A stretch of DNA of 64,000 nt, from positions 56,022 to 120,021 of the IMG/VR virus record IMGVR_UViG_3300044981_000204; one strand, given 5' to 3'. This document shows positions 3,701-63,088 of this stretch, in pieces; position 1 is the first letter of the stretch; each line of letters starts with the position of its first letter. The notes beneath the pieces were generated by a model. That model was not told the DNA's origin. It made no database searches and was given only the letters and a program-made list of their open reading frames with translations. This DNA comes from a virus. Both the position numbers and the translations under genes were made by a program.

Positions 3701-4881
3701 ACTACGAGGTCCCGAACCAACCAGCGGGGGCGGACCCGAACGGGTTCATCAACGCCATCCCTGGCACGTTCATACCTACGGTGGTGAAGTTTTCTAACTA
3801 CTCGGGAACGTTCAATGGGTCGAGCATAGGCGGCACACAGTCCTATGGCAACATGACCTCGGCCACCACAGTGGCGGGGCCAAACGACAGGAAGTTCATC
3901 GACAATCGCGCGATCAACCCGACCCTAGGCATACTTGCTGAGGTTACTTCGGCTTCGGGTTGCTTCACCCCCCCGGGAGCGGCGGCACTACCAGCACCGC
4001 TTGCCGGAACGTCTCAGACGTACCTCTTGGCCGACGCCACGTCGACGGTGGCCCCCACCGACCCGCACAAGAGCACATTGACGGGTTGGGCTGGGTCGCA
4101 CTACCTCAAGGACTACTCCAGCCCGGCGACGGGAAACGTTTTTGGCGACGCTCAGTCGTTCGGTTACTGCTTAGCTTGGCAGGCGGGGGAGTGTAGGTCC
4201 GGTTCGTCTGCTGGCAGCGCATATGTCAGCGTGCCCCTAGCCGAGAGTCCGAACTCGTGCATGCAGTCGGACCAAAACTCGATGGCGGTGCCGGGGTTGT
4301 TCAACCTTGCGTCGATCGCCGGACAAACCCTTCAAGCTGACCCGTATGCGTTCGACCCAAACCAGTTATTTGCTAGGAAGCTCGGGTTCGGGCTCAGGGC
4401 TCCCGGGATGCAGTACTCGTATCAGCACACGTGGGGCATGCCCGATGGCAAGGCCATAATGGGGAGGGTGGACTGGGCCGATGGCGTGGTGTCGGGACTA
4501 TATTTGGCCGGAATACCTTCGTGGCCGAACCCGAGCAGTTCTACCTCTGGAGACTACCAAAAATATGAGATCTCCCTAGGACCTGGTCCGTCGGGATCTA
4601 ACGCTAGAGCCTTGTTGGGGTACGACGAGGATGGTTCGACGCCCTCTGCTCTGTACTGCGCGTCGAGGAAGGATGCTTGCTCAACTGAGGCGACAGGATC
4701 CAACCCCTTCGCCTTCATTGGTACGTCGGGGGAAAGAACACTCGAGGCGTGCGCCGGAGGGTGCACGCTCACCGTGCCCATCATACCGGGTAGGGTGGCA
4801 TACTATCAGGTCCAGAGACTGGATGCCTCCGGGGTTTTGGTACTTTCCTCGGGCCCCATCACGGCCGTTGCCGCGCCGTAG
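796..4881 (+). CDS. Large Cys/Gly/Ser/Thr-rich beta protein with N-terminal signal peptide (tail fibre/adhesin-like or secreted)
   Basis: 1361 aa; MHKLILLIAVTGPLWA resembles a Sec signal; internal tail-fibre-like segment (GSVTTSSTAVT...ILINGSYYTISSFTDSSHLTLT); many Cys. Confidence 0.6.
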   Translation: MHKLILLIAVTGPLWATSPRNVRGSATAQQYVLDFDVAVPTDVLTCTVAVYVDSARSTMIVDSNAAVETNAQKCNRGLLRSDLSSIVSGTHVQFIVGRRATMKSQATNLLASLSLSPSTHYYGTITSGGGSVNFEFVTLNIATGHNFPEQPLYDSTNTNVHGLQYPNMVGGGLVTDPVTGLQVAMVPSARNDMANSGPVALGTTAIDVTGGKWTNVQNCGTNNSSTCSSTGAGATDYLFVPLPNIANYSGWNPQYVVQDIVFYIYCSSPTTQQTLRVWLTRDSSQTADSGNFFSATCPVGSTSTTTMSDTTNGYPHPWFSQWAPSTKWIKPEVVPGAGSVTTSSTAVTRVSGDPFITSVPSGSKILINGSYYTISSFTDSSHLTLTGSAGTQSSPVAYRMAASGLRIANVTGTDNVTLSIGYNAATTTQPGYSTYNADKPTCNLNSTSITHDASGAPIPATPGYLCSDLEGSVYLYVPQNADGTARLEMRPLSRLTFTPGSHVDMNGDGANPFGNGTNVLFGGWDSTDPLTLYGWVAYYGGRPIVRAHYDTTISSDCANFKAYSSGPANGFSVGLINPDCFLYTVITPALSIPSKAGRSQVIAAYPTGINQLGQQVGAAHPIMGDVGWFLYFGDGSGLGVVGSAGCMPMFSETEGFSLNACFDLNTGVLKSLVDSFSTWPAIGGGSHGWNALAVGGLTWTEGGDPPVFDGYNPLIPFNRPFQAAVSQVNLAGFGSPPSWTSTTTLPSTTQLTCPPFTDPKVATYFGAYSGTNNCVQVRLSSPLCSHVPAPNASGGGYDFAGGKSESQAYPCSTPGFGVSSSSPDATGWSKLWDIFPGMWLWDMVGTPTTGDKYGENFVVAAAPTYNAANSIDVWLLRSVKAKYMVPRNGPTQTDPVCDDSGASYANHANGWTLSVFPPFACGFVGYWYDVNDPTAQMFWGNTQTGHGVIGNGSVANTFTAISYGNNGYYYEVPNQPAGADPNGFINAIPGTFIPTVVKFSNYSGTFNGSSIGGTQSYGNMTSATTVAGPNDRKFIDNRAINPTLGILAEVTSASGCFTPPGAAALPAPLAGTSQTYLLADATSTVAPTDPHKSTLTGWAGSHYLKDYSSPATGNVFGDAQSFGYCLAWQAGECRSGSSAGSAYVSVPLAESPNSCMQSDQNSMAVPGLFNLASIAGQTLQADPYAFDPNQLFARKLGFGLRAPGMQYSYQHTWGMPDGKAIMGRVDWADGVVSGLYLAGIPSWPNPSSSTSGDYQKYEISLGPGPSGSNARALLGYDEDGSTPSALYCASRKDACSTEATGSNPFAFIGTSGERTLEACAGGCTLTVPIIPGRVAYYQVQRLDASGVLVLSSGPITAVAAP

Positions 4882-5798: not shown

Positions 5799-6476
5799 AT
5801 GATTAGGCCAATGATCTTGTTGCTTGCGCCGTTGGCCCTAGCGGTGTCGCAGCCCACGGTGCAGCCCGGTGGCGTTCGCCATGTGACCGTCTCATTCAGC
5901 GCCCAGGGGGCGTTGGGGTCCTCCCTCACCGGGTTGAGCTTCACGGGCTATAGTGCCACGGTGTGCAGTGCAGATGGCCAGGGCATCGACGTGGGCGGTG
6001 GGAGGGTTTGGCAGGCGGCTGAGTCCTTGGGGTTGAGGCTCGTCACGCCCCACGTTGCCTCTCTAGCCGCAACACAAGCTAAGGCCAGATCAAAGTGGCA
6101 GATAATGGCCGTGTTGGGTGCTGAGCTGATGTTCGACATGGCCGTAGTAGCTGGCGCAGACATCGTTCACGTGAACCCTGCTAAGGTCGTTGGCAAGGTT
6201 TGGCGAATCACCCCAATCATCCTCAATAAGAAGCTGGGGGATTGGAACGCTCAGCAGGCCCTGGTCCACCCGGACCTGGTCTCATCCTTCGGAGACCTTG
6301 CCCTGTACCCGGACCACATCATCAGCGTGTCGTCCGGCGGAAACTGCCCACAGAGGCTGTTCCTCGCATCTTCGGGAGGACCGGATGGTGGCTCGGTGGA
6401 TCTGCAGATAGCTGTGCTGCCACCAGCAGTGGTGTTCGCCCCCACCCCACAAGCTGCTCCCGTTCTCGGGAAATAG
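5799..6476 (+). CDS. Hypothetical exported protein
   Basis: SD GAGG; MIRPMILLLAPLALA signal-peptide-like N-terminus. Confidence 0.6.
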   Translation: MIRPMILLLAPLALAVSQPTVQPGGVRHVTVSFSAQGALGSSLTGLSFTGYSATVCSADGQGIDVGGGRVWQAAESLGLRLVTPHVASLAATQAKARSKWQIMAVLGAELMFDMAVVAGADIVHVNPAKVVGKVWRITPIILNKKLGDWNAQQALVHPDLVSSFGDLALYPDHIISVSSGGNCPQRLFLASSGGPDGGSVDLQIAVLPPAVVFAPTPQAAPVLGK

Positions 6477-24226: not shown

Positions 24227-24374
24227 TCGGGATCCCCCAGACCGTCCGGAACTTCCTCGTCGGTTGCGGGGCACTTAGGGACCTTGTCCCAGTACTCCTC
24301 GGCCAAGCCGCAGTTGTTGCAGTAAAAATCGCCCGGGGTGGGTCGCTCATGGGTTGTGTTCATGGACTTCCTCC

Positions 24375-24808
24375 TCAGTACTTCTTACCAGACTTCCTTT
24401 CGGTGCTCTCGACCGCGGCCATGGCTAGTGCCGCCACCTTGACCATCCTCGACCTGAAGTCGGCAAGGTTCGTGCCCTTCCGCATGGCGCTATCGAGCTC
24501 TTCACGCGATCCCGGAAGCACTAGCACCGACCCCAGCTGCCTCCTGATGAACCCAAGGAACTCCACGTACGTGTGCTCGTCGTTGTGGCGAGGACCTCCC
24601 CACTGTTGGTCCTGGGCCTTCCTCTCCCTCATGACCTCGACGATGAACCTCCTTTTGGCAGCATCGATGGGAGCAGGGCTTGGAGGAAGTTTCGGTACTC
24701 CCGAACCCCCAGCTGGGGGAACCGCGAACCGCTCATCTTCTTCATCCACGATTGGTCGGTGGCCTCTAGCGGTTGATATTCGAACGTGCTCGTCGCGGGC
24801 CTCACCCA
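24375..24808 (-). CDS. All-alpha NTP-PPase-like phage protein
   Basis: EVMRERKAQDQQWG...MVKVAALAMAAVES; SD AGGAGG upstream of ATG 24808. Confidence 0.55.
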
Positions 24809-25134
24809 TTCCCTCGGTCCCTCCTATTTTTAAGCGCCGACGATATGGCACTTAGGAAGTCGTCCACCGCCGAGTCGATCGCCTCAACCAGCGAGGGCTT
24901 AGTGGCTGAACGCACGACCACCTTTCCCCTGCCGTACTTCTCCTCATACCTCACGAGGGAGCAGTAGTACTGGTCGCCCGGGACCATCGACAGCACTATG
25001 CCCGGCGACGTGTCGTCGGTGGGGTACATCTTGGTGAGGACCCCTAGGGACTTCTGGAGTCGCAGTAGAGGGGCGTCTGACGGTAGCTTGCCGTCGACCT
25101 TCTTACTAACTAGCTTTTTCTTCGTCTTTAGCAT
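24802..25134 (-). CDS. Hypothetical protein
   Basis: Packed ORF; its 3' end holds the 28-nt site matched at 57529-57556. Confidence 0.6.
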   Translation of the reverse strand: MLKTKKKLVSKKVDGKLPSDAPLLRLQKSLGVLTKMYPTDDTSPGIVLSMVPGDQYYCSLVRYEEKYGRGKVVVRSATKPSLVEAIDSAVDDFLSAISSALKNRRDRGNG

Positions 25135-52624: not shown

Positions 52625-53002
52625 TTCGGGGATTCTGTTGCCAGGCTCCCCTAGGGCCCCGCTACGCGCGGCCTATTAGGCCGCGTACGCCAGGACCAGG
52701 GGTTGAACCCGGGGCCTGACTGGCATGGTGACTACCTTTTTGGCGGCACCTGTGGTTTGCTACGTTCCAGGGCAACCTGATGCTAGGTCGACCCGCGGCG
52801 TTCGCCTGCCGATTGCCTCCAGCGCCCCTCACTGCCACGTCGAAACCAATTCGCCCCCACCGAGGGAGTGATGGCACACGTCTTGATGTCCTGCAAGATA
52901 ATTGCGCTCATGCATAGTGTGTTGCCCCATCACTGCCCTGGTGGAGGCGCCGGGGATCGAACCCGGGTCCGCGATAGCTACTCACGCCTTCATCAGCAAA
53001 AT
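52625..53002 (-). ncRNA. ssrA: tmRNA, circularly permuted two-piece form
   Basis: T arm and acceptor 3' end GGACCCGGGUUCGAUCCCCGGCGCCUCCACCA (CCA ends at 52939) come before the 5' end GGGGGCGAAUUGGUUUCGAC (starts 52858); G3.U70 pair; tag ORF 52747-52676 AAKKVVTMPVRPRVQPLVLAYAA followed by two stops; outer boundaries approximate. Confidence 0.9.
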
Positions 53003-56350: not shown

Positions 56351-56968
56351 TCACCCTGGCCCCCTCAGGGAGAGCACAGAGCACCCGAACTCGACCACCA
56401 GCGCTATGGCGGCTCGGTAGGTCGACCAGGGTTGACACTCGGTATGTTCGGCCAACTCGTCTGGGTCCTCGGACCTGAGCCAGTAGCCTATGTCTCGGAC
56501 GAGGCACCCGACCCCCACCTTCGTGGGGGAGTTTGGGTAGACCGGGTAGGGGTGGCACTGGACCTGGAGGGGGGTTCGGGTGCAGGTGACCAGGTCGCCG
56601 AGCTGGACCCCGTTGCCGAGCACGACCCCGTCGCCGACCACAGCCCCGTTGCCGAGCACGGCCCGGTCTCCGACCACGGCCCCGTCTCCGACCACGGCCC
56701 GGTCGCCGACCACGGCCCCGTTGCCGAGCTCGGCCCAGTTGCCGAGCTCGACCCAGTTGCCGAGCTCGGCCCCGTTGCCGACCACAGCCCCGTTGCCGAG
56801 CACGGCCCAGTTGCCGAGCACGGCCCGGTCGCCGACCACGGCCCCGTTGCCGAGCTTAACTTTGAACCCTATCTTGATCGTCCTACCGTTTGTCAGCTTT
56901 CGCCAGCCTAAGTTATCCTGAGCAGCCGCCATGATCTCATCTACCGTCATGTGTTCATTGGCCTCCAT
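56351..56968 (-). CDS. Hexapeptide-repeat (left-handed beta-helix) protein
   Basis: Long run of [LV]G[ND]xA[VE] repeats. Confidence 0.85.
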   Translation of the reverse strand: MEANEHMTVDEIMAAAQDNLGWRKLTNGRTIKIGFKVKLGNGAVVGDRAVLGNWAVLGNGAVVGNGAELGNWVELGNWAELGNGAVVGDRAVVGDGAVVGDRAVLGNGAVVGDGVVLGNGVQLGDLVTCTRTPLQVQCHPYPVYPNSPTKVGVGCLVRDIGYWLRSEDPDELAEHTECQPWSTYRAAIALVVEFGCSVLSLRGPG

Positions 56969-57369
56969 GTGCCGCCATGTGTTCGTTGTACTTCATATGA
57001 TGGAATATGTTCGTTTGACTCCCTAGTTCGACATCCCATCCCATCCCAAGTCAGTGTCCCTCCGCTTTGACCACCACGGCTGCCCATCGCTCATATTTCT
57101 CGCTCTGATTGTCGGGTTCGAACGGGTTGAATTGATGTTCGGCGGCCTCTTTGAGCGCTTTGAGAAGTTCAGGCGCGGCTCGATGCAGCGGACAGTGTCG
57201 CACGAAATACCGCATAGCCGCGTCACATTCGACAGAACACGTGCAACTCACGACCGCACCGCCCTTGCGCCGCTCACCAAGCCATGGTTCCAGAAGGCCT
57301 TAACTTGCGCCATATGTTCGTTGCACGCCATATGCCACCATGTGTTCGTTGGACTTCCCTAGTTCGACA
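56948..57369. repeat. Two clusters of 28-nt-period repeats
   Basis: CATRTGTTCRTTG at 56948, 56976, (57004), 57311, 57339; each cluster ends in CCCTAGTTCGACA. Confidence 0.75.
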
Positions 57370-57528
57370 AAACCGCGCCCGGGCCTCGACCATCTCTAAC
57401 ATGACGTGGAGGGCGGGCGCGGGGGCGGGGGCCTTTTTCAGATGTATCAGATTACATTTGCCTGAAGCAGAGACGCTACCGCCCAACCAGTTACATGGCG
57501 CTACCATCTAACAGATGTGGCCGCAACC

Positions 57529-57734
57529 ACGACTTCCTAAGTGCCATATCGTCGGCTGACGAAACAGCGATGGGTTCCGGACTCGGGGAACCGGCGAACC
57601 CGCGAACTTCGTGAGGCGGCAAGCACTCGCTAGATCGGCAGGTTTGCTGGAGCGGATTCGCGCGGAACCCCGACTCAGGAACCCATCTTAAAGCAGCCGA
57701 CGCCAGCGAGGTAGGCTTGCCAACTACCTCACAA
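57529..57734 (-). ncRNA. Candidate bistable RNA with 28-nt antisense tail
   Basis: Two long alternative helices, G.U wobbles favouring the minus strand, TACAAT at 57739-57744, exact reverse complement of 24836-24863. Confidence 0.68.
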
Positions 57735-58711
57735 GACCATTGTATGTCGGGTTTTGCCTGCGGTAAACGGGAAAGATCCCGCGCTGGTCAGGGGGTTTGG
57801 GGTGGGGGCGCCGACAGTAGGACAGGGGCAGGCGACCCGGCCTTGAGCAGGTCGACCAACTGCTCCCTTAGCCTCGAGTCCTCCTCGCGCAGGGTGCCGT
57901 GGTATCCAAAGAGCAGCTCTGCGAACCTGTCGTAGGTGTCCGACGACGTCGCCCCGCTCGCGTAATCCGCGGCGACGCCCATGGCGCGGTCTATTGCCGC
58001 GTGCAGCAGGCCGTCGGACATTGGTATGGTCGTTAAGGTAGTTCTCCAAAAAACCTCTTACGTTTTCCGCGTCAGTCGAGTCCTCCACGTTGACCCGCAC
58101 CTCGATTATGGCCGTAGTGCTGGCTGTTTTTTCGGACATAGTGTTTTTCTAAGTAACGCTAGTGAGGGGAATCACGACCTCGCACACCTTCTTGCCGTCA
58201 TTGAGTCGATACTGGTATATGGCTCCCTCGGAGGAGTAACAGAAAATCTCCAACTTGAGCTCTCTTGGTATAGTCACATCCTCGCAATCGTTTTCAAGAA
58301 TAAGTACAAGCTCAATTTTTTGGGGGTCCACGAGATCGCGGCACATCACGTTGTAGGAGACCTCTAAGCCGTTGAACCTGACCTCTTCGACGGTTCCTAC
58401 CCTATCTGGGCACGAAACCTGTCGGACGACGTCGTTCTTCATGAAGCGGTACTGTATTTGTGGCATAATACCTCGCTTTGGGATTAATACTACCTCGGGT
58501 TTTGGATCCTAGACCGGGGAACTTACGTCGTCCACTTTTGGGTGGACTGAGACCCTCGATCCCAACCCAACGACTCGAGCGCCGCCCTCGCGGCCGATCT
58601 CGCCAGACTTAAAGCCGGGGTGGTCGGAGCAAATGATTCTGTAGTATTTTGCCATTTAAATTGGATCCCGGAATTTCGGGGATCTGGCGAGCTGGGAGTC
58701 TGGAGGCCGGG

Positions 58712-58759
58712 CCGGGGCCGGGGCCGGGGCCGGGGCCGGGGCCGGGGCCGGGGCCGGGG
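58712..58759 (+). repeat. (CCGGGG)8 microsatellite, G-quadruplex-prone
   Basis: 8 perfect hexamers in intergenic DNA. Confidence 0.95.
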
Positions 58760-61491: not shown

Positions 61492-62001
61492 TCAGTCCCA
61501 CTTGATGTTGCCGGCGGCCATCAAGTGATTACGATAATACGAAAAGATTCTCGCCGGGTCTTGCTTCGTCTGCAGGAGCCCCGCGGCCGCTCCGGCACGG
61601 ACCACGCCAAAGATCTCCTCCTCGGGCATGTCCCGCTTCGGCTGACCGAACAGGATCCGCTGCAAAGCGGAAACTTGTTTGGTTTTATGGAAGGTAATCG
61701 GAGCTTGTAGAAGGTGGTACAAGGGCCTTCCTTTTCCACTTGTCGGCTTAACAACTGGTACCGCGACCGGAGCCTGGGTTGTTGCGGCGAGCGCCGCAGC
61801 TTCCTTCTTGAGTTCCTCGAGCTCCGCGAGCAGCTCCTCGGTCGTCTTCTGCTCCGGCTCCCGGACCTCGGTCTCCCTCACGATGTCCTCGATCGCGGCG
61901 CCAACCATGGCGTCACCGATGGTAGCTTGGATGTCCATCTTCTTCTCCTTTTCGTTGTTACCGCCAACGCGCGCGGCCTTCTTGCCAAATTTTTTGGCCA
62001 T
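61492..62001 (-). CDS. Winged-helix-like paralog 7
   Basis: TKQVSALQRIL...LQTKQDPARIFSYYRNHLMAAGNI; promoter at 62024, SD GAGGTG. Confidence 0.72.
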   Translation of the reverse strand: MAKKFGKKAARVGGNNEKEKKMDIQATIGDAMVGAAIEDIVRETEVREPEQKTTEELLAELEELKKEAAALAATTQAPVAVPVVKPTSGKGRPLYHLLQAPITFHKTKQVSALQRILFGQPKRDMPEEEIFGVVRAGAAAGLLQTKQDPARIFSYYRNHLMAAGNIKWD

Positions 62002-63088
62002 GTGCAAATCACCTCACAAGACCATTGTAGCACAGTTTGGTGCGGAGTTTGCTTGTTTGTGTTCTCCCGCACCATGAATTTGCGGGGTCCTGGTCTTACG
62101 TACTTAGGCCGAGGACCCAGCGAAGCTCCTCGATTCGAGAGGAAAGCTCCGCCATCTTGGGCTCGGATCCAACCGGTACCCGTAGTTCTCGAGGCGCTCG
62201 AGCTTGCGGTACTGCGTGACGTAGACCTGCAGCCGAGCGTCGATCTCTTGTTGAGTCCTCATACGCCTCCTACCTCGGGTTCCACACTATCACCACCCCC
62301 AGCGACTCAAGCTGCCGGACCTCGGCGTCCGTTATCGGGACCCATTCGCTCGACCCGGGCACCCGACACTCGCGGCCGGAGCCGGGGATCGGGGTACGCC
62401 AACGTATCTCGTACATGTTCGACCTCCGCTTAGTTTTGCTCACAGAACCATCTTAGTGCGGAATTGGCTCCCGCGGCTCGGTTGTTCCAACAACCAGCAG
62501 GTTCCTGGTCACAAGGACTCCTGCCCACGGCAGCGGAGTCCCGGCTCGCAGTTTGCTGTTGTACTCACAGACCCATCATATTACAGATTTGGGTCTAGGA
62601 TTCCGGAATTTACTGCTCGACTTCCTCCTCCGGCAACGAGTCGATTAGGTCCTGGACCTTCTGCGCAGCAGTCTGGGTCATGCGAGCGGTCCACGGGACC
62701 GCGACCTCGCCGATCCCGTCTACCTCGACGCGGATCATCGTAATACACTTTGGTTTGTTCATACTACGATCATACGTCGGATGTGGTGCCTGGTTTCCGG
62801 AATGTTGTTTCCTGGTTCGGGCTTCCGGGCTGGGGAGGCGGGGGGCGGGGGGCGGGGGTCCCGAAAGAGTTCACCCTCCTCGGGCGACCTGCTCTCAGGT
62901 GTTAGTCTAATAGTTCAGCCTAGGCGGCGGACGAGCGTACTCTCGGGCGGTCATCTTGGGTTTGTTTAACATAGTTAGTCCCATTTTTATTTTCCTAGTT
63001 CACCTAGGATATTCGATCCGTTCGGAGCATATGGCCCAAATTGGTCATGTGGACCACATTGGGCCACGATTTGGTCGACCACCAATCC

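What the first reader, a model, noticed from the sequence alone, without database searches (positions are those of the whole stretch)
24836..24863. Perfect 28-nt inverted match between this site and an ncRNA tail 33 kb away
Seen: GCCGACGATATGGCACTTAGGAAGTCGT (24836-24863, +) is the exact reverse complement of 57529-57556; the flanks diverge. A chance 28-mer match in 64 kb is about 1e-7 by simple counting. Both loci are read on the minus strand, so the 57.5-kb RNA tail is fully antisense to this mRNA. The site is the 3' end of ORF 24802-25134, about 10 nt upstream of the SD of the NTP-PPase-like gene. Inference: a trans-encoded, perfectly complementary antisense or guide RNA (scaffold plus 3' guide, reminiscent of omega-RNA layouts) that controls the nucleotide-modification operon. 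No TnpB/Cas-like effector is visible in the window.
Basis: partly seen in the sequence, partly recalled or inferred. Interest (0 to 1): 0.88.

Follow-up and report, generated by a model that had tools for sequence, protein, structure and literature searches.

The report
Phage RNA antisense to distant gene
A soil phage carries a promoter-driven, folded non-coding RNA gene holding 28 bases that are the exact complement of one of its own messages 33 kb away, at a hairpin that hides the next gene's ribosome-binding site. It is probably a small regulatory RNA, but nothing yet shows that it is made or conserved.

Summary
The 28-nt perfect inverted match (24836-24863 / 57529-57556) is real. It is the only inverted match of 18 nt or more between two distinct sites in the 120-kb genome, and it is far beyond chance. 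Both copies also stand in a second assembly of the likely source run.

The 57.5-kb copy lies in a 207-nt stretch free of ORFs of 50 aa or more (57511-57717), inside a roughly 570-nt gap between credible genes. A sigma-70-like promoter on the minus strand precedes it, and the RNA folds well (z -4.9). It is antisense to the operon mRNA.

The 28-mer is not a proven 3' tail. The only terminator-like hairpin I found lies about 160 nt further on, so the segment sits mid-RNA, and its first 7 nt pair in a stem.

The target covers the anti-SD arm of a 43-nt hairpin that sequesters the SD of the next gene (p144). Blocking the 28-mer in silico frees that SD.

No TnpB, reverse transcriptase, IS110, serine or tyrosine recombinase, or RNase III was found in the genome, so the guide-RNA reading has no support.

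There are no usable relatives and no RNA data. All five proteins I searched in the large protein collections are ORFans: four flank the two sites, and the fifth is ORF110, which holds the target itself. Covariation and expression therefore remain untested.

This scan has already noted similar phage trans-sRNA candidates on other DNA.

Best reading: a trans-acting antisense sRNA (about 0.45). Main rival: a non-functional patch duplication.

The parts
57739..57767 (-). Sigma-70-like promoter TTTACC-17 nt-TACAAT; inferred transcription start near 57733
   Evidence: 9 of 12 consensus matches, and the only promoter-like site in 56900-58200 (shuffles average 0.3). TACAAT also precedes the phage tmRNA gene at 53026-53021.
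57367..57733 (-). Predicted non-coding RNA of about 365 nt (both ends inferred, not shown)
   Evidence: -148.3 kcal/mol against -120.2 +/- 5.8 for shuffles, z -4.86, 0 of 100 shuffles as stable. No ORF of 50 aa or more in any frame across 57511-57717. No Rfam family at E up to 10 other than two chance-level hits.
57569..57687 (-). Long imperfect helix ('helix B') forming the 5' domain of the RNA
   Evidence: present in every fold computed. A 151-nt unitig from a second soil run (X2) is identical over 57556-57706.
57529..57556 (-). 28-nt antisense segment, RNA nt 178-205. The first 7 nt (GCCGACG) can pair with 57699-57693; the central ACUUAGG is mostly unpaired.
   Evidence: the match; unpaired probabilities 0.6-0.9 for ACUUAGG and 0.00-0.06 for GACG.
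57369..57422 (-). GC-rich 50-nt hairpin followed by UUUUGU; candidate terminator
   Evidence: Seen only in my own fold. The consensus terminator scan did NOT call it.
24836..24863 (-). Target segment in the operon mRNA, covering codons 91-100 of ORF110
24818..24860 (-). 43-nt mRNA hairpin in which CUUCCU (24859-54) pairs with the SD AGGAGG (24825-20)
   Evidence: -16.7 kcal/mol against -6.9 +/- 2.4 for shuffles (1 of 1000 as stable). SD unpaired probability is 0.013-0.065 in six sequence contexts, and 0.50-0.73 when the 28-mer is blocked. Against: in a 73-nt fold it appears only in the centroid, z -0.85.
24802..25134 (-). ORF110, a lineage-specific ORFan that holds the target
   Evidence: Codon-position GC 0.55/0.41/0.76. 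Only itself among 5.8 billion proteins. Absent from L001 and L002. Weak HPF-like fold, TM 0.55.
24375..24809 (-). p144, the gene whose SD is sequestered. Its start overlaps the ORF110 stop (ATGGGTGA).
   Evidence: The core is conserved in L001 and L002 at 40-43% identity (alignment). PHROG 2831, function unknown. Predicted all-helical, with no significant PDB fold match.
62011..62029 (-). Second exact copy of the 19 nt TACAATGGTCTTGTGAGGT, here the -10 box plus SD leader of ORF 61492-62007
   Evidence: E 1.5e-4.

Best explanation
A trans-encoded, base-pairing regulatory RNA of a lytic soil phage.

How I think it works:
- Host RNA polymerase transcribes a structured RNA of about 200-365 nt from the promoter at 57767-57739 (minus strand).
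- Its nt 178-205 pair perfectly with the polycistronic nucleotide-metabolism mRNA at 24863-24836.
- In the free mRNA this segment is the 5' arm and loop of a hairpin whose anti-SD (CUUCCU) masks the SD of p144. Without the RNA, p144 would therefore be translated mainly when ribosomes finishing ORF110 open the hairpin (translational coupling).
- Binding of the RNA occupies the anti-SD and frees the SD. This is 'anti-antisense' activation, as DsrA does for rpoS.
- The 28-bp duplex would also be a substrate for host RNase III. Cleavage there would cut the message between ORF110 and p144. I give roughly 60:40 for activation over repression or cleavage.

Shown: the match, its uniqueness, the strand geometry, a promoter-like site, a stable fold, and the computed masking and unmasking of the SD.

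Inferred: transcription, the RNA ends, pairing in vivo, and the direction of the effect.
For: - The match is unique and far beyond chance.
- There is a minus-strand promoter-like site directly upstream, and none on the plus strand in 56900-58200. The same -10 plus leader 19-mer heads a protein gene at 62 kb, and TACAAT heads the tmRNA gene.
- Fold z-score is -4.86.
- The site lies in a 207-nt stretch with no ORF of 50 aa or more (57511-57717), inside a roughly 570-nt gap between credible genes. That gap runs from p77, which ends at 57788, to a 54-aa ORF starting at 57215.
- Duplex energy is -54.8 kcal/mol, against 15.4 kcal/mol to free the segment in the RNA.
- The target hairpin is -16.7 against -6.9 +/- 2.4 kcal/mol, matched by 1 of 1000 shuffles. 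SD unpaired probability is 0.013-0.065 free and 0.50-0.73 with the 28-mer blocked.
- This SD ranks 4th most buried of 51 GGAGG-type sites in the genome.
- The homologous starts in 2 of 2 relatives are not buried in this way (unpaired about 0.4-0.6).
- Both copies are present in an independent assembly.
- The mechanism has a precedent: the DsrA-rpoS interaction relieves a structure that blocks the RBS and creates an RNase III site (abstract of PMC2831331, listing).
Against: - No transcript evidence. No RNA run is listed for this phage.
- No covariation test is possible. The five related loci found (L001-L005, from contigs of about 2.0-18.2 kb) do not reach the RNA locus. The five proteins searched (ORF110, p226, p105, p77 and, by tblastn only, p144) have no homologue beyond the phage itself.
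- ORF110, and so the target, is missing from 2 of 2 relatives. The pair may be young and unselected.
- The terminator is my own reading; the scan did not call it.
- In a 73-nt context the MFE is a different fold, with z only -0.85; 34 of 200 shuffles are as stable.
- The SD burial is strong but not unique (4th of 51).
- The exposed nucleotides of the two partners do not face each other. The mRNA loop AUAUCGUC (unpaired 0.97-1.0) pairs with RNA nucleotides that are mostly paired: seven of the eight have unpaired probability 0.00-0.26, and one U has 0.95.
- Trans-encoded sRNAs normally have short, imperfect pairing (passage of PMC12197685). A perfect 28-mer may instead mark a recent copy event.
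Confidence: 0.45

Rival explanations
1. A non-functional patch duplication. A 28-nt piece of ORF110 was copied in inverted orientation into a tolerant non-coding region, for example by template switching or filler synthesis during recombination-dependent replication or break repair. It has simply not yet decayed, and any antisense effect is incidental.
For: - Identity drops abruptly from 100% to background in the flanks. Perfect identity is what a recent copy looks like.
- The phage shows another short exact patch, the 19-mer at 57726-57744 / 62011-62029. The RNA locus therefore looks like a mosaic of copied pieces.
- ORF110 is a recent, lineage-specific gene.
- 28 nt is not a multiple of 3, so the copy most simply went from the ORF into non-coding DNA (sequence logic).
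Against: - Only one such inverted patch of 18 nt or more exists in 120 kb, so this is not a general property of the genome.
- Three coincidences must all hold. The patch lands just downstream of a promoter inside a strongly folded RNA. Its orientation gives antisense rather than sense. The source segment is exactly the anti-SD arm of an SD-masking hairpin.
Confidence: 0.25
2. A DNA-level element. The two 28-bp copies would be crossover sites for inversion of the 32.7-kb segment between them, or two binding sites for one DNA-binding protein.
For: Two perfect inverted copies is the layout of invertase systems such as Hin/hix and Gin/gix (recalled, not from a call). Iteron-like repeats lie 160-590 bp from the 57.5-kb copy, at 57368-57305 and 57030-56943, so DNA-binding proteins probably act in this region.
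Against: - No serine recombinase, tyrosine recombinase or IS110-type transposase in six-frame searches of the 92%-complete genome.
- The 28-mer has no internal dyad beyond 4 bp (read directly from the sequence).
- An inversion would break both ORF110 and the RNA locus, and would turn about 33 kb of co-oriented replication genes round.
- Operators are rarely identical over 28 bp.
Confidence: 0.1
3. A guide RNA for a protein effector of an unrecognised family (omega-RNA or crRNA-like), directing it to the 24.8-kb DNA or RNA.
For: - A large scaffold is followed by a perfectly matching segment of spacer-like length, 28 nt.
- Many genes here are ORFans, so an unknown effector cannot be excluded.
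- TnpB uses one long RNA with a guide (abstracts of PMC10097598 and PMC8612924, listing). Domesticated TnpB relatives act as RNA-guided transcription factors (abstract of 10.1101/2023.11.30.569447).
Against: - No TnpB by PF07282 or NF040570, and no reverse transcriptase or IS110.
- The neighbouring ORFs are small: 54, 77, 105, 205 and 226 aa.
- There are no repeats flanking the 28-mer and no second scaffold copy in the genome.
- 7 nt of the 'guide' are inside a stem, and the RNA continues past it.
- Self-targeting of an intact, essential-looking operon by a nuclease would be harmful to the phage.
Confidence: 0.07
4. The folded RNA is mainly a cis-acting leader or attenuator for the genes downstream of it (the 54-aa ORF 57215-57051 and the hexapeptide-repeat gene 56351-56968). 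The operon mRNA would then be the regulator: by pairing with nt 178-205 it refolds the leader and changes read-through.
For: - A terminator-like hairpin sits between the RNA and the downstream genes.
- Blocking the 28-mer re-pairs the 5' region of the RNA; 86 of 126 base pairs are kept.
Against: - The alternative 'helix A' conformer is 13.3 kcal/mol less stable than the MFE.
- The terminator hairpin itself is unchanged in the free and the blocked folds.
- There is no evidence that the downstream genes lack their own promoter.
Confidence: 0.08

Closest known systems
DsrA/RprA-type 'anti-antisense' activators of rpoS translation (E. coli)
   Same: A trans-encoded sRNA pairs with the arm of an mRNA hairpin that masks the ribosome-binding site and so frees it. 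The resulting duplex is also an RNase III site (abstract of PMC2831331). Here, blocking the 28-mer raises the SD unpaired probability from 0.06 or less to at least 0.5.
   Different: DsrA pairing is imperfect and helped by Hfq, and it acts on a 5' leader. Here the pairing is a perfect 28 nt, lies inside the preceding ORF of a polycistronic phage message, and is encoded by the phage itself. No sequence or Rfam relationship was found.
c4 antisense RNA of phages P1/P7 (and the CI RNA of satellite P4, recalled)
   Same: A phage-encoded RNA acts in trans on the phage's own mRNA near a ribosome-binding site, with the complementary sequences presented by the RNA's structure (passage of PMC12197685).
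   Different: c4 blocks the RBS and represses; it serves immunity in a temperate phage-plasmid; and its complementary blocks are short. Here the target lies upstream of the SD and unmasking is predicted. The phage has no integrase, ParA or ParB. No Rfam family other than the tmRNA reached its gathering score in the window, so c4 (RF01695, accession recalled) did not match. The permissive scan of 57200-57900 also found nothing credible.
Trans-encoded type I antitoxin sRNAs (IstR-1/tisB, OhsC/shoB, RalA/ralR; recalled)
   Same: A short stretch (about 16-30 nt) of perfect complementarity between an sRNA and a distinct site in an mRNA, with RNase III cleavage of the duplex.
   Different: Those pairs are adjacent genes, and the targets encode small toxins. 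Here the partners are 32.7 kb apart, and ORF110 is a hydrophilic 110-aa protein with no toxin-like feature.
TnpB omega-RNA / reRNA
   Same: A long structured scaffold with a target-matching segment on its 3' side (abstracts of PMC10097598 and PMC8612924).
   Different: There is no TnpB or other known effector in the genome and no IS element. The matching segment overlaps a stem and is not at a predicted 3' end.

Membership tests
Trans-encoded base-pairing sRNA (functional class) | Own promoter, separate from the target locus | tested here: met
   TTTACC-17-TACAAT at 57767-57739 on the minus strand, 32.7 kb from the target. This is a consensus match only, not a mapped transcription start.
Trans-encoded base-pairing sRNA (functional class) | Defined 3' end (terminator or processing site) | tested here: inconclusive
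   A hairpin plus UUUUGU at 57422-57367 appears in my folds, but the terminator scan did not call it.
Trans-encoded base-pairing sRNA (functional class) | Non-coding | tested here: met
   No ORF of 50 aa or more in any frame over 57511-57717. The overlapping ORFs 57274-57507 and 57729-58139 lack coding-like GC3. There is no SD before the ATG at 57507.
Trans-encoded base-pairing sRNA (functional class) | Complementarity to an mRNA transcribed elsewhere, in antisense orientation | tested here: met
   28 of 28 nt, duplex energy -54.8 kcal/mol. The operon is on the minus strand.
Trans-encoded base-pairing sRNA (functional class) | The RNA is expressed and changes target expression | not testable with these tools
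   No RNA run is listed. The host is unknown.
Trans-encoded base-pairing sRNA (functional class) | Pairing conserved or co-varying in relatives | not testable with these tools
   No relative covers the RNA locus.
c4 antisense RNA family (Rfam RF01695, accession recalled) | Match to the covariance model | tested here: not met
   In the Rfam scan of the whole window only the tmRNA reached a gathering score. The permissive scan of 57200-57900 gave two chance-level hits, mir-84 and UCA1.
TnpB/IscB omega-RNA | Cognate effector gene in the element | tested here: not met
   PF07282 and NF040570 gave 0 matches in the six-frame genome search, while the controls were positive.
TnpB/IscB omega-RNA | Guide is a free segment at the RNA end, next to the scaffold | tested here: not met
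   7 of the 28 nt are paired in the basal stem. The predicted RNA continues about 160 nt further.
CRISPR array or mini-array | Spacer flanked by direct repeats | tested here: not met
   No repeat family flanks 57529-57556. The nearest repeats are iteron-like units starting about 160 nt away.
Site-specific DNA inversion system (Hin/Gin/Cin type) | Recombinase gene | tested here: not met
   PF00239 and PF00589 gave 0 matches.
Site-specific DNA inversion system (Hin/Gin/Cin type) | Both orientations present in the population | tested here: inconclusive
   Only contigs could be laid. They showed no joints, but contigs drop rare forms.
Type I toxin-antitoxin pair | Adjacent genes; small, usually hydrophobic toxin | tested here: not met
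   The partners are 32.7 kb apart. ORF110 is 110 aa and hydrophilic.

The most novel reading that the evidence does not exclude
The phage may build programmable riboregulators by copying spacer-sized patches of its own genes into a promoter-equipped RNA scaffold. The locus already looks like a mosaic of a copied 19-nt promoter-leader and a copied 28-nt antisense patch. The resulting perfect guide might then work with an as yet unrecognised ORFan protein, or as a toehold switch in which target binding strand-invades the basal stem and refolds the RNA. That would be an RNA-guided self-regulation system with no relation to CRISPR or OMEGA.
Probability: 0.06. Interest if true: 0.85.

Novelty: new member of a known kind. 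Interest (0 to 1): 0.5.

Why it matters
Regulatory RNAs of lytic, uncultivated phages are almost unknown. The textbook rule is that trans-encoded sRNAs pair imperfectly, while perfect pairing belongs to cis-antisense RNAs (PMC12197685).

A trans RNA with a perfect 28-nt match would be a clean, easily tested case of RNA-controlled translational uncoupling inside a phage nucleotide-metabolism operon. It is aimed at the arm of an SD-masking hairpin.

It might also show how new sRNA-target pairs are born: by copying a piece of the target.

If it is only a repair scar, it serves as a caution that perfect short matches can mimic regulatory design.

Tried and rejected
Relatives
- Close-protein scans of viral contigs with p136, ORF110 and the 226-aa deoxyribosyltransferase-like protein found no relative.
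- PolA found 2 viral and 3 metagenome contigs (63-71% identity; loci of about 2.0-18.2 kb). None reaches the RNA locus.
- In GenBank phages the best PolA identity is below 40%. There was no hit for the RNA region, ORF110 or p144.
- Exact-pattern scans gave nothing: a 22-mer of the match in viral contigs and in genome contigs, and the 19-mer promoter-leader in viral contigs.
- A two-arm helix pattern gave one hit, L006. It lies in what looks like coding sequence and I judged it chance; I expected a few chance hits.
- The big protein searches returned only the phage's own proteins.
I could therefore not see the gene caller's start for p144.

Sequencing runs
- No RNA holder is listed.
- Only contigs of two DNA runs could be laid. 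They showed no joints and no variants, and there is no cover of the 28-mer in X2 beyond its first base. This says nothing on expression, inversion or population variation.
- Only one stretch could be laid, so I did not examine the target locus in the runs.

Extended homology
- Flank alignments were not significant, with one exception: a same-sense 17/19 match (24727-24709 against about 57600-57582; 0 of 300 shuffles, 8 comparisons made). I leave it unexplained and treat it as probably chance.
- An apparent likeness between the 5' arm of the RNA and the sequence after the target is largely forced by the stem and is not significant.

Secondary targets
- The next best antisense matches in the genome are 12 nt or shorter.
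- A 10-nt match at 24270-24279 first seemed to cover a start codon. It in fact lies inside a 46-aa Zn-ribbon ORF. Rejected as chance.

'Bistable RNA' (e1-6166828)
- The forced helix A conformer is 13.3 kcal/mol above the MFE. Not supported as an equilibrium switch.

p144 as an NTP pyrophosphatase
- No Pfam, NCBIfam or PDB sequence hit.
- The AF2 model is helical, with pLDDT 64. The best Foldseek E-value is 1.8, and MazG-like chains appear only at E 4.6-7.8. Not established.

Phage-plasmid or immunity reading
- No ParA, ParB or integrase.

Supplementary files of papers were not consulted.
Full report
1. THE OBSERVATION

- The 28-mer GCCGACGATATGGCACTTAGGAAGTCGT is at 24836-24863 (+). Its exact reverse complement is at 57529-57556. 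No third site exists with up to 3 mismatches, and 0 of 100 dinucleotide shuffles gave two sites.
- It is the longest inverted repeat in the window. In the whole genome it is the only inverted exact match of 18 nt or more between two distinct sites; the one other inverted hit is an 18-nt palindrome pairing with itself.
- The genome is 120,021 bp, 58% GC, with a 200-bp end overlap, and is an IMG/VR virus record rated 92% complete.
- Simple counting gives about 6e-8 for the window (my arithmetic). The pair is therefore a copy, not a coincidence.
- The flanks are unrelated. Co-linear flank alignments score like shuffles: 65 of 300 on the left and 296 of 300 on the right.
- Logan's assembly of run X1, probably the source sample, has one copy inside a 117,753-nt contig and the other inside a 1,912-nt contig, both at about 24x. 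A second soil run, X2, holds an identical 151-nt unitig over 57556-57706.
- An assembly chimera is therefore not a credible explanation.

2. THE 57.5-kb LOCUS

- Nearly all genes run on the minus strand.
- The 28-mer lies in a 207-nt stretch with no ORF of 50 aa or more in any frame, 57511-57717. That stretch sits inside a roughly 570-nt gap between credible genes:
  - Upstream is the 77-aa gene 57788-58021, with GC3 0.83. It is present as a called protein in the representative library.
  - Downstream is a 54-aa ORF at 57215-57051.
- The ORFs listed as overlapping the edges of this stretch lack coding-like GC3.
- The only promoter-like site in 56900-58200 is TTTACC-17-TACAAT at 57767-57739 on the minus strand.
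- The 19 nt TACAATGGTCTTGTGAGGT recur exactly at 62029-62011. There they form the -10 box plus SD leader of ORF 61492-62007.
- TACAAT also stands just upstream of the phage's permuted tmRNA, which scores 82 bits in Rfam.
- From about 57733 the RNA folds into a 5' hairpin and a long imperfect helix. Energy is -148.3 kcal/mol against -120.2 +/- 5.8 for shuffles (z -4.86, 0 of 100 as stable).
- The first 7 nt of the 28-mer (GCCGACG) can close that helix. The centre (ACUUAGG) is mostly unpaired, with probabilities of 0.6-0.9.
- No 3' end is predicted right after the 28-mer. A 50-nt GC-rich hairpin plus UUUUGU lies at 57422-57367, but the consensus terminator scan did not call it.
- On this model the RNA is about 365 nt and the antisense segment is nt 178-205. 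That makes it central, not a tail.
- Rfam gives nothing credible here.

3. THE 24.8-kb LOCUS

- The operon appears to start from a TGGTACAAT promoter-like site at about 27308.
- The gene order is: methyltransferase, deoxyribosyltransferase-like protein, p101, ORF110, p144, a 46-aa Zn-ribbon ORF, a PRA-PH/MazG-like protein, ThyX, ThyA-like protein, HD protein, PolA.
- The 28-mer covers codons 91-100 of ORF110, encoding DDFLSAISSA. It ends 10 nt before AGGAGG (24825-20). The p144 ATG (24809) overlaps the ORF110 stop.
- ORF110 has coding-like GC3 of 0.76, but it has no homologue among 5.8 billion proteins.
- ORF110 is absent from both related contigs that cover this block. In L001 and L002 the p144-like gene follows a different gene: the deoxyribosyltransferase-like gene in L001 and a MazG-domain gene in L002.
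- p144 is conserved there at 40-43% identity (alignment), but its function is unknown.

4. A MECHANISTIC CLUE

- In the mRNA, the target segment forms the 5' arm and loop of a 43-nt hairpin (24860-24818). CUUCCU (24859-54) pairs with the p144 SD, and AAGUGCC pairs with GGCGCUU.
- The hairpin energy is -16.7 kcal/mol against -6.9 +/- 2.4 for shuffles (1 of 1000 as stable).
- The SD unpaired probability is 0.013-0.065 in six sequence contexts. It rises to 0.50-0.73 when the 28 nt are made unavailable.
- Among 51 GGAGG-type sites in the genome, this SD is the 4th most buried.
- The p144-like starts of L001 and L002 are not buried in this way, at about 0.4-0.6 (n = 2).
- Caveats:
  - In a 73-nt fold the MFE is a different structure. 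The hairpin shows only in the centroid, with z -0.85.
  - The exposed nucleotides of the two RNAs are not mutually complementary.
- Energetically, pairing is strongly favoured: -54.8 kcal/mol for the duplex against 15.4 kcal/mol to free the segment in the RNA.

5. WHAT IT IS NOT

Six-frame family searches of the genome, all with positive controls, found none of the following:
- serine recombinase;
- TnpB, by two models;
- tyrosine recombinase;
- reverse transcriptase;
- IS110 transposase;
- ParB or ParA;
- RNase III.

In addition:
- No repeats flank the 28-mer, and no second scaffold copy exists.
- The neighbouring ORFs are small ORFans.
- The guide-RNA, CRISPR-like, retron-like, invertase and phage-plasmid immunity readings therefore all lack their defining partner.

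6. LIMITS

- No RNA run is listed, and only contigs could be laid.
- No relative covers the RNA locus.
- Expression, RNA ends, conservation and covariation are therefore untested.

7. READING

- Most likely (0.45) this is a trans-acting antisense sRNA that acts at the ORF110/p144 junction.
  - It would free the masked SD, as DsrA does at rpoS (PMC2831331 abstract).
  - Alternatively or additionally, it would create an RNase III site.
- The main rival (0.25) is a recent, unselected 28-nt patch copy. Both the perfect identity and the youth of ORF110 fit that reading.
- Against the rival stand three coincidences: the promoter, fold and antisense orientation at one end, and the anti-SD arm at the other.
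- A perfect 28-nt match is atypical for trans-encoded sRNAs (PMC12197685).
- The kind itself is known: c4 of P1/P7 is a phage RNA that pairs in trans with the phage's own mRNA near a ribosome-binding site.
- This scan has already recorded several such candidates on other DNA, some with covariation support (e1-5360809, e1-3753264, e1-5842810; I did not check them).
- I therefore rate this a new member of a known kind, with moderate interest.

Noticed in passing
57368-57305 and 57030-56943 (minus strand): Two clusters of iteron-like units (AACGAACAYATGG), each opening with GTCGAACTAGGGA. They flank a 54-aa ORF (57215-57051). The second cluster overlaps the start of the hexapeptide-repeat gene. 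They could be an origin or an operator array.
   Followed up: partly
62011-62029 and 57726-57744: An exact 19-nt duplication of a -10 box plus leader. At 62 kb the GAGGT serves as the SD of ORF 61492-62007. RNA nt 118-127 (CCUCACGAAG) are complementary, with one bulge, to this shared leader, so that mRNA could be a second, imperfect target.
   Followed up: partly
52676-53000 (minus strand): A phage-encoded permuted (two-piece) tmRNA: Rfam RF04321 at 82 bits, with an ARAGORN tag peptide ending in LAYAA. TACAAT lies at 53026-53021.
   Followed up: partly
6228-6324 (minus strand): ARAGORN reports a 97-nt tRNA-like gene with a four-base anticodon (aagg). It may be a frameshift-suppressor-like tRNA or a false call.
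   Followed up: no
24363-24223 (minus strand): An unlisted 46-aa CxxC...C Zn-ribbon ORF with a good SD lies between p144 and the MazG-like gene. The MazG-like gene probably starts at ATG 24226 (an ATGA overlap) rather than GTG 24274.
   Followed up: partly
L002 4244-6124: In this related contig, ThyX matches in two pieces (aa 1-94 and 94-294) separated by about 1 kb. This suggests an intron, intein or homing-endonuclease insertion that is absent from this phage.
   Followed up: no
56558-56899 and 58702-58753: An 18-nt-period tandem repeat (13 copies) encodes the hexapeptide-repeat protein. There is also a GGGCCG microsatellite-like run. Logan's contig breaks fall at these two repeats.
   Followed up: no
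Genome 2256-2290, 2521-2550 and 3771-3793 (outside the window): A three-copy direct repeat family of 19-30 exact nt, CACCCATGGTCTCCCATCG..., of unknown role.
   Followed up: no
24709-24727 and about 57582-57600 (both minus-strand sense): A same-sense 17/19 match (GGTTCGCGGTTCCCCCAG against GGTTCGCCGGTTCCCCGAG) between the p144 coding region and the 3' arm of the RNA's long helix. It beat 300 of 300 shuffles, but it was one of 8 comparisons.
   Followed up: partly
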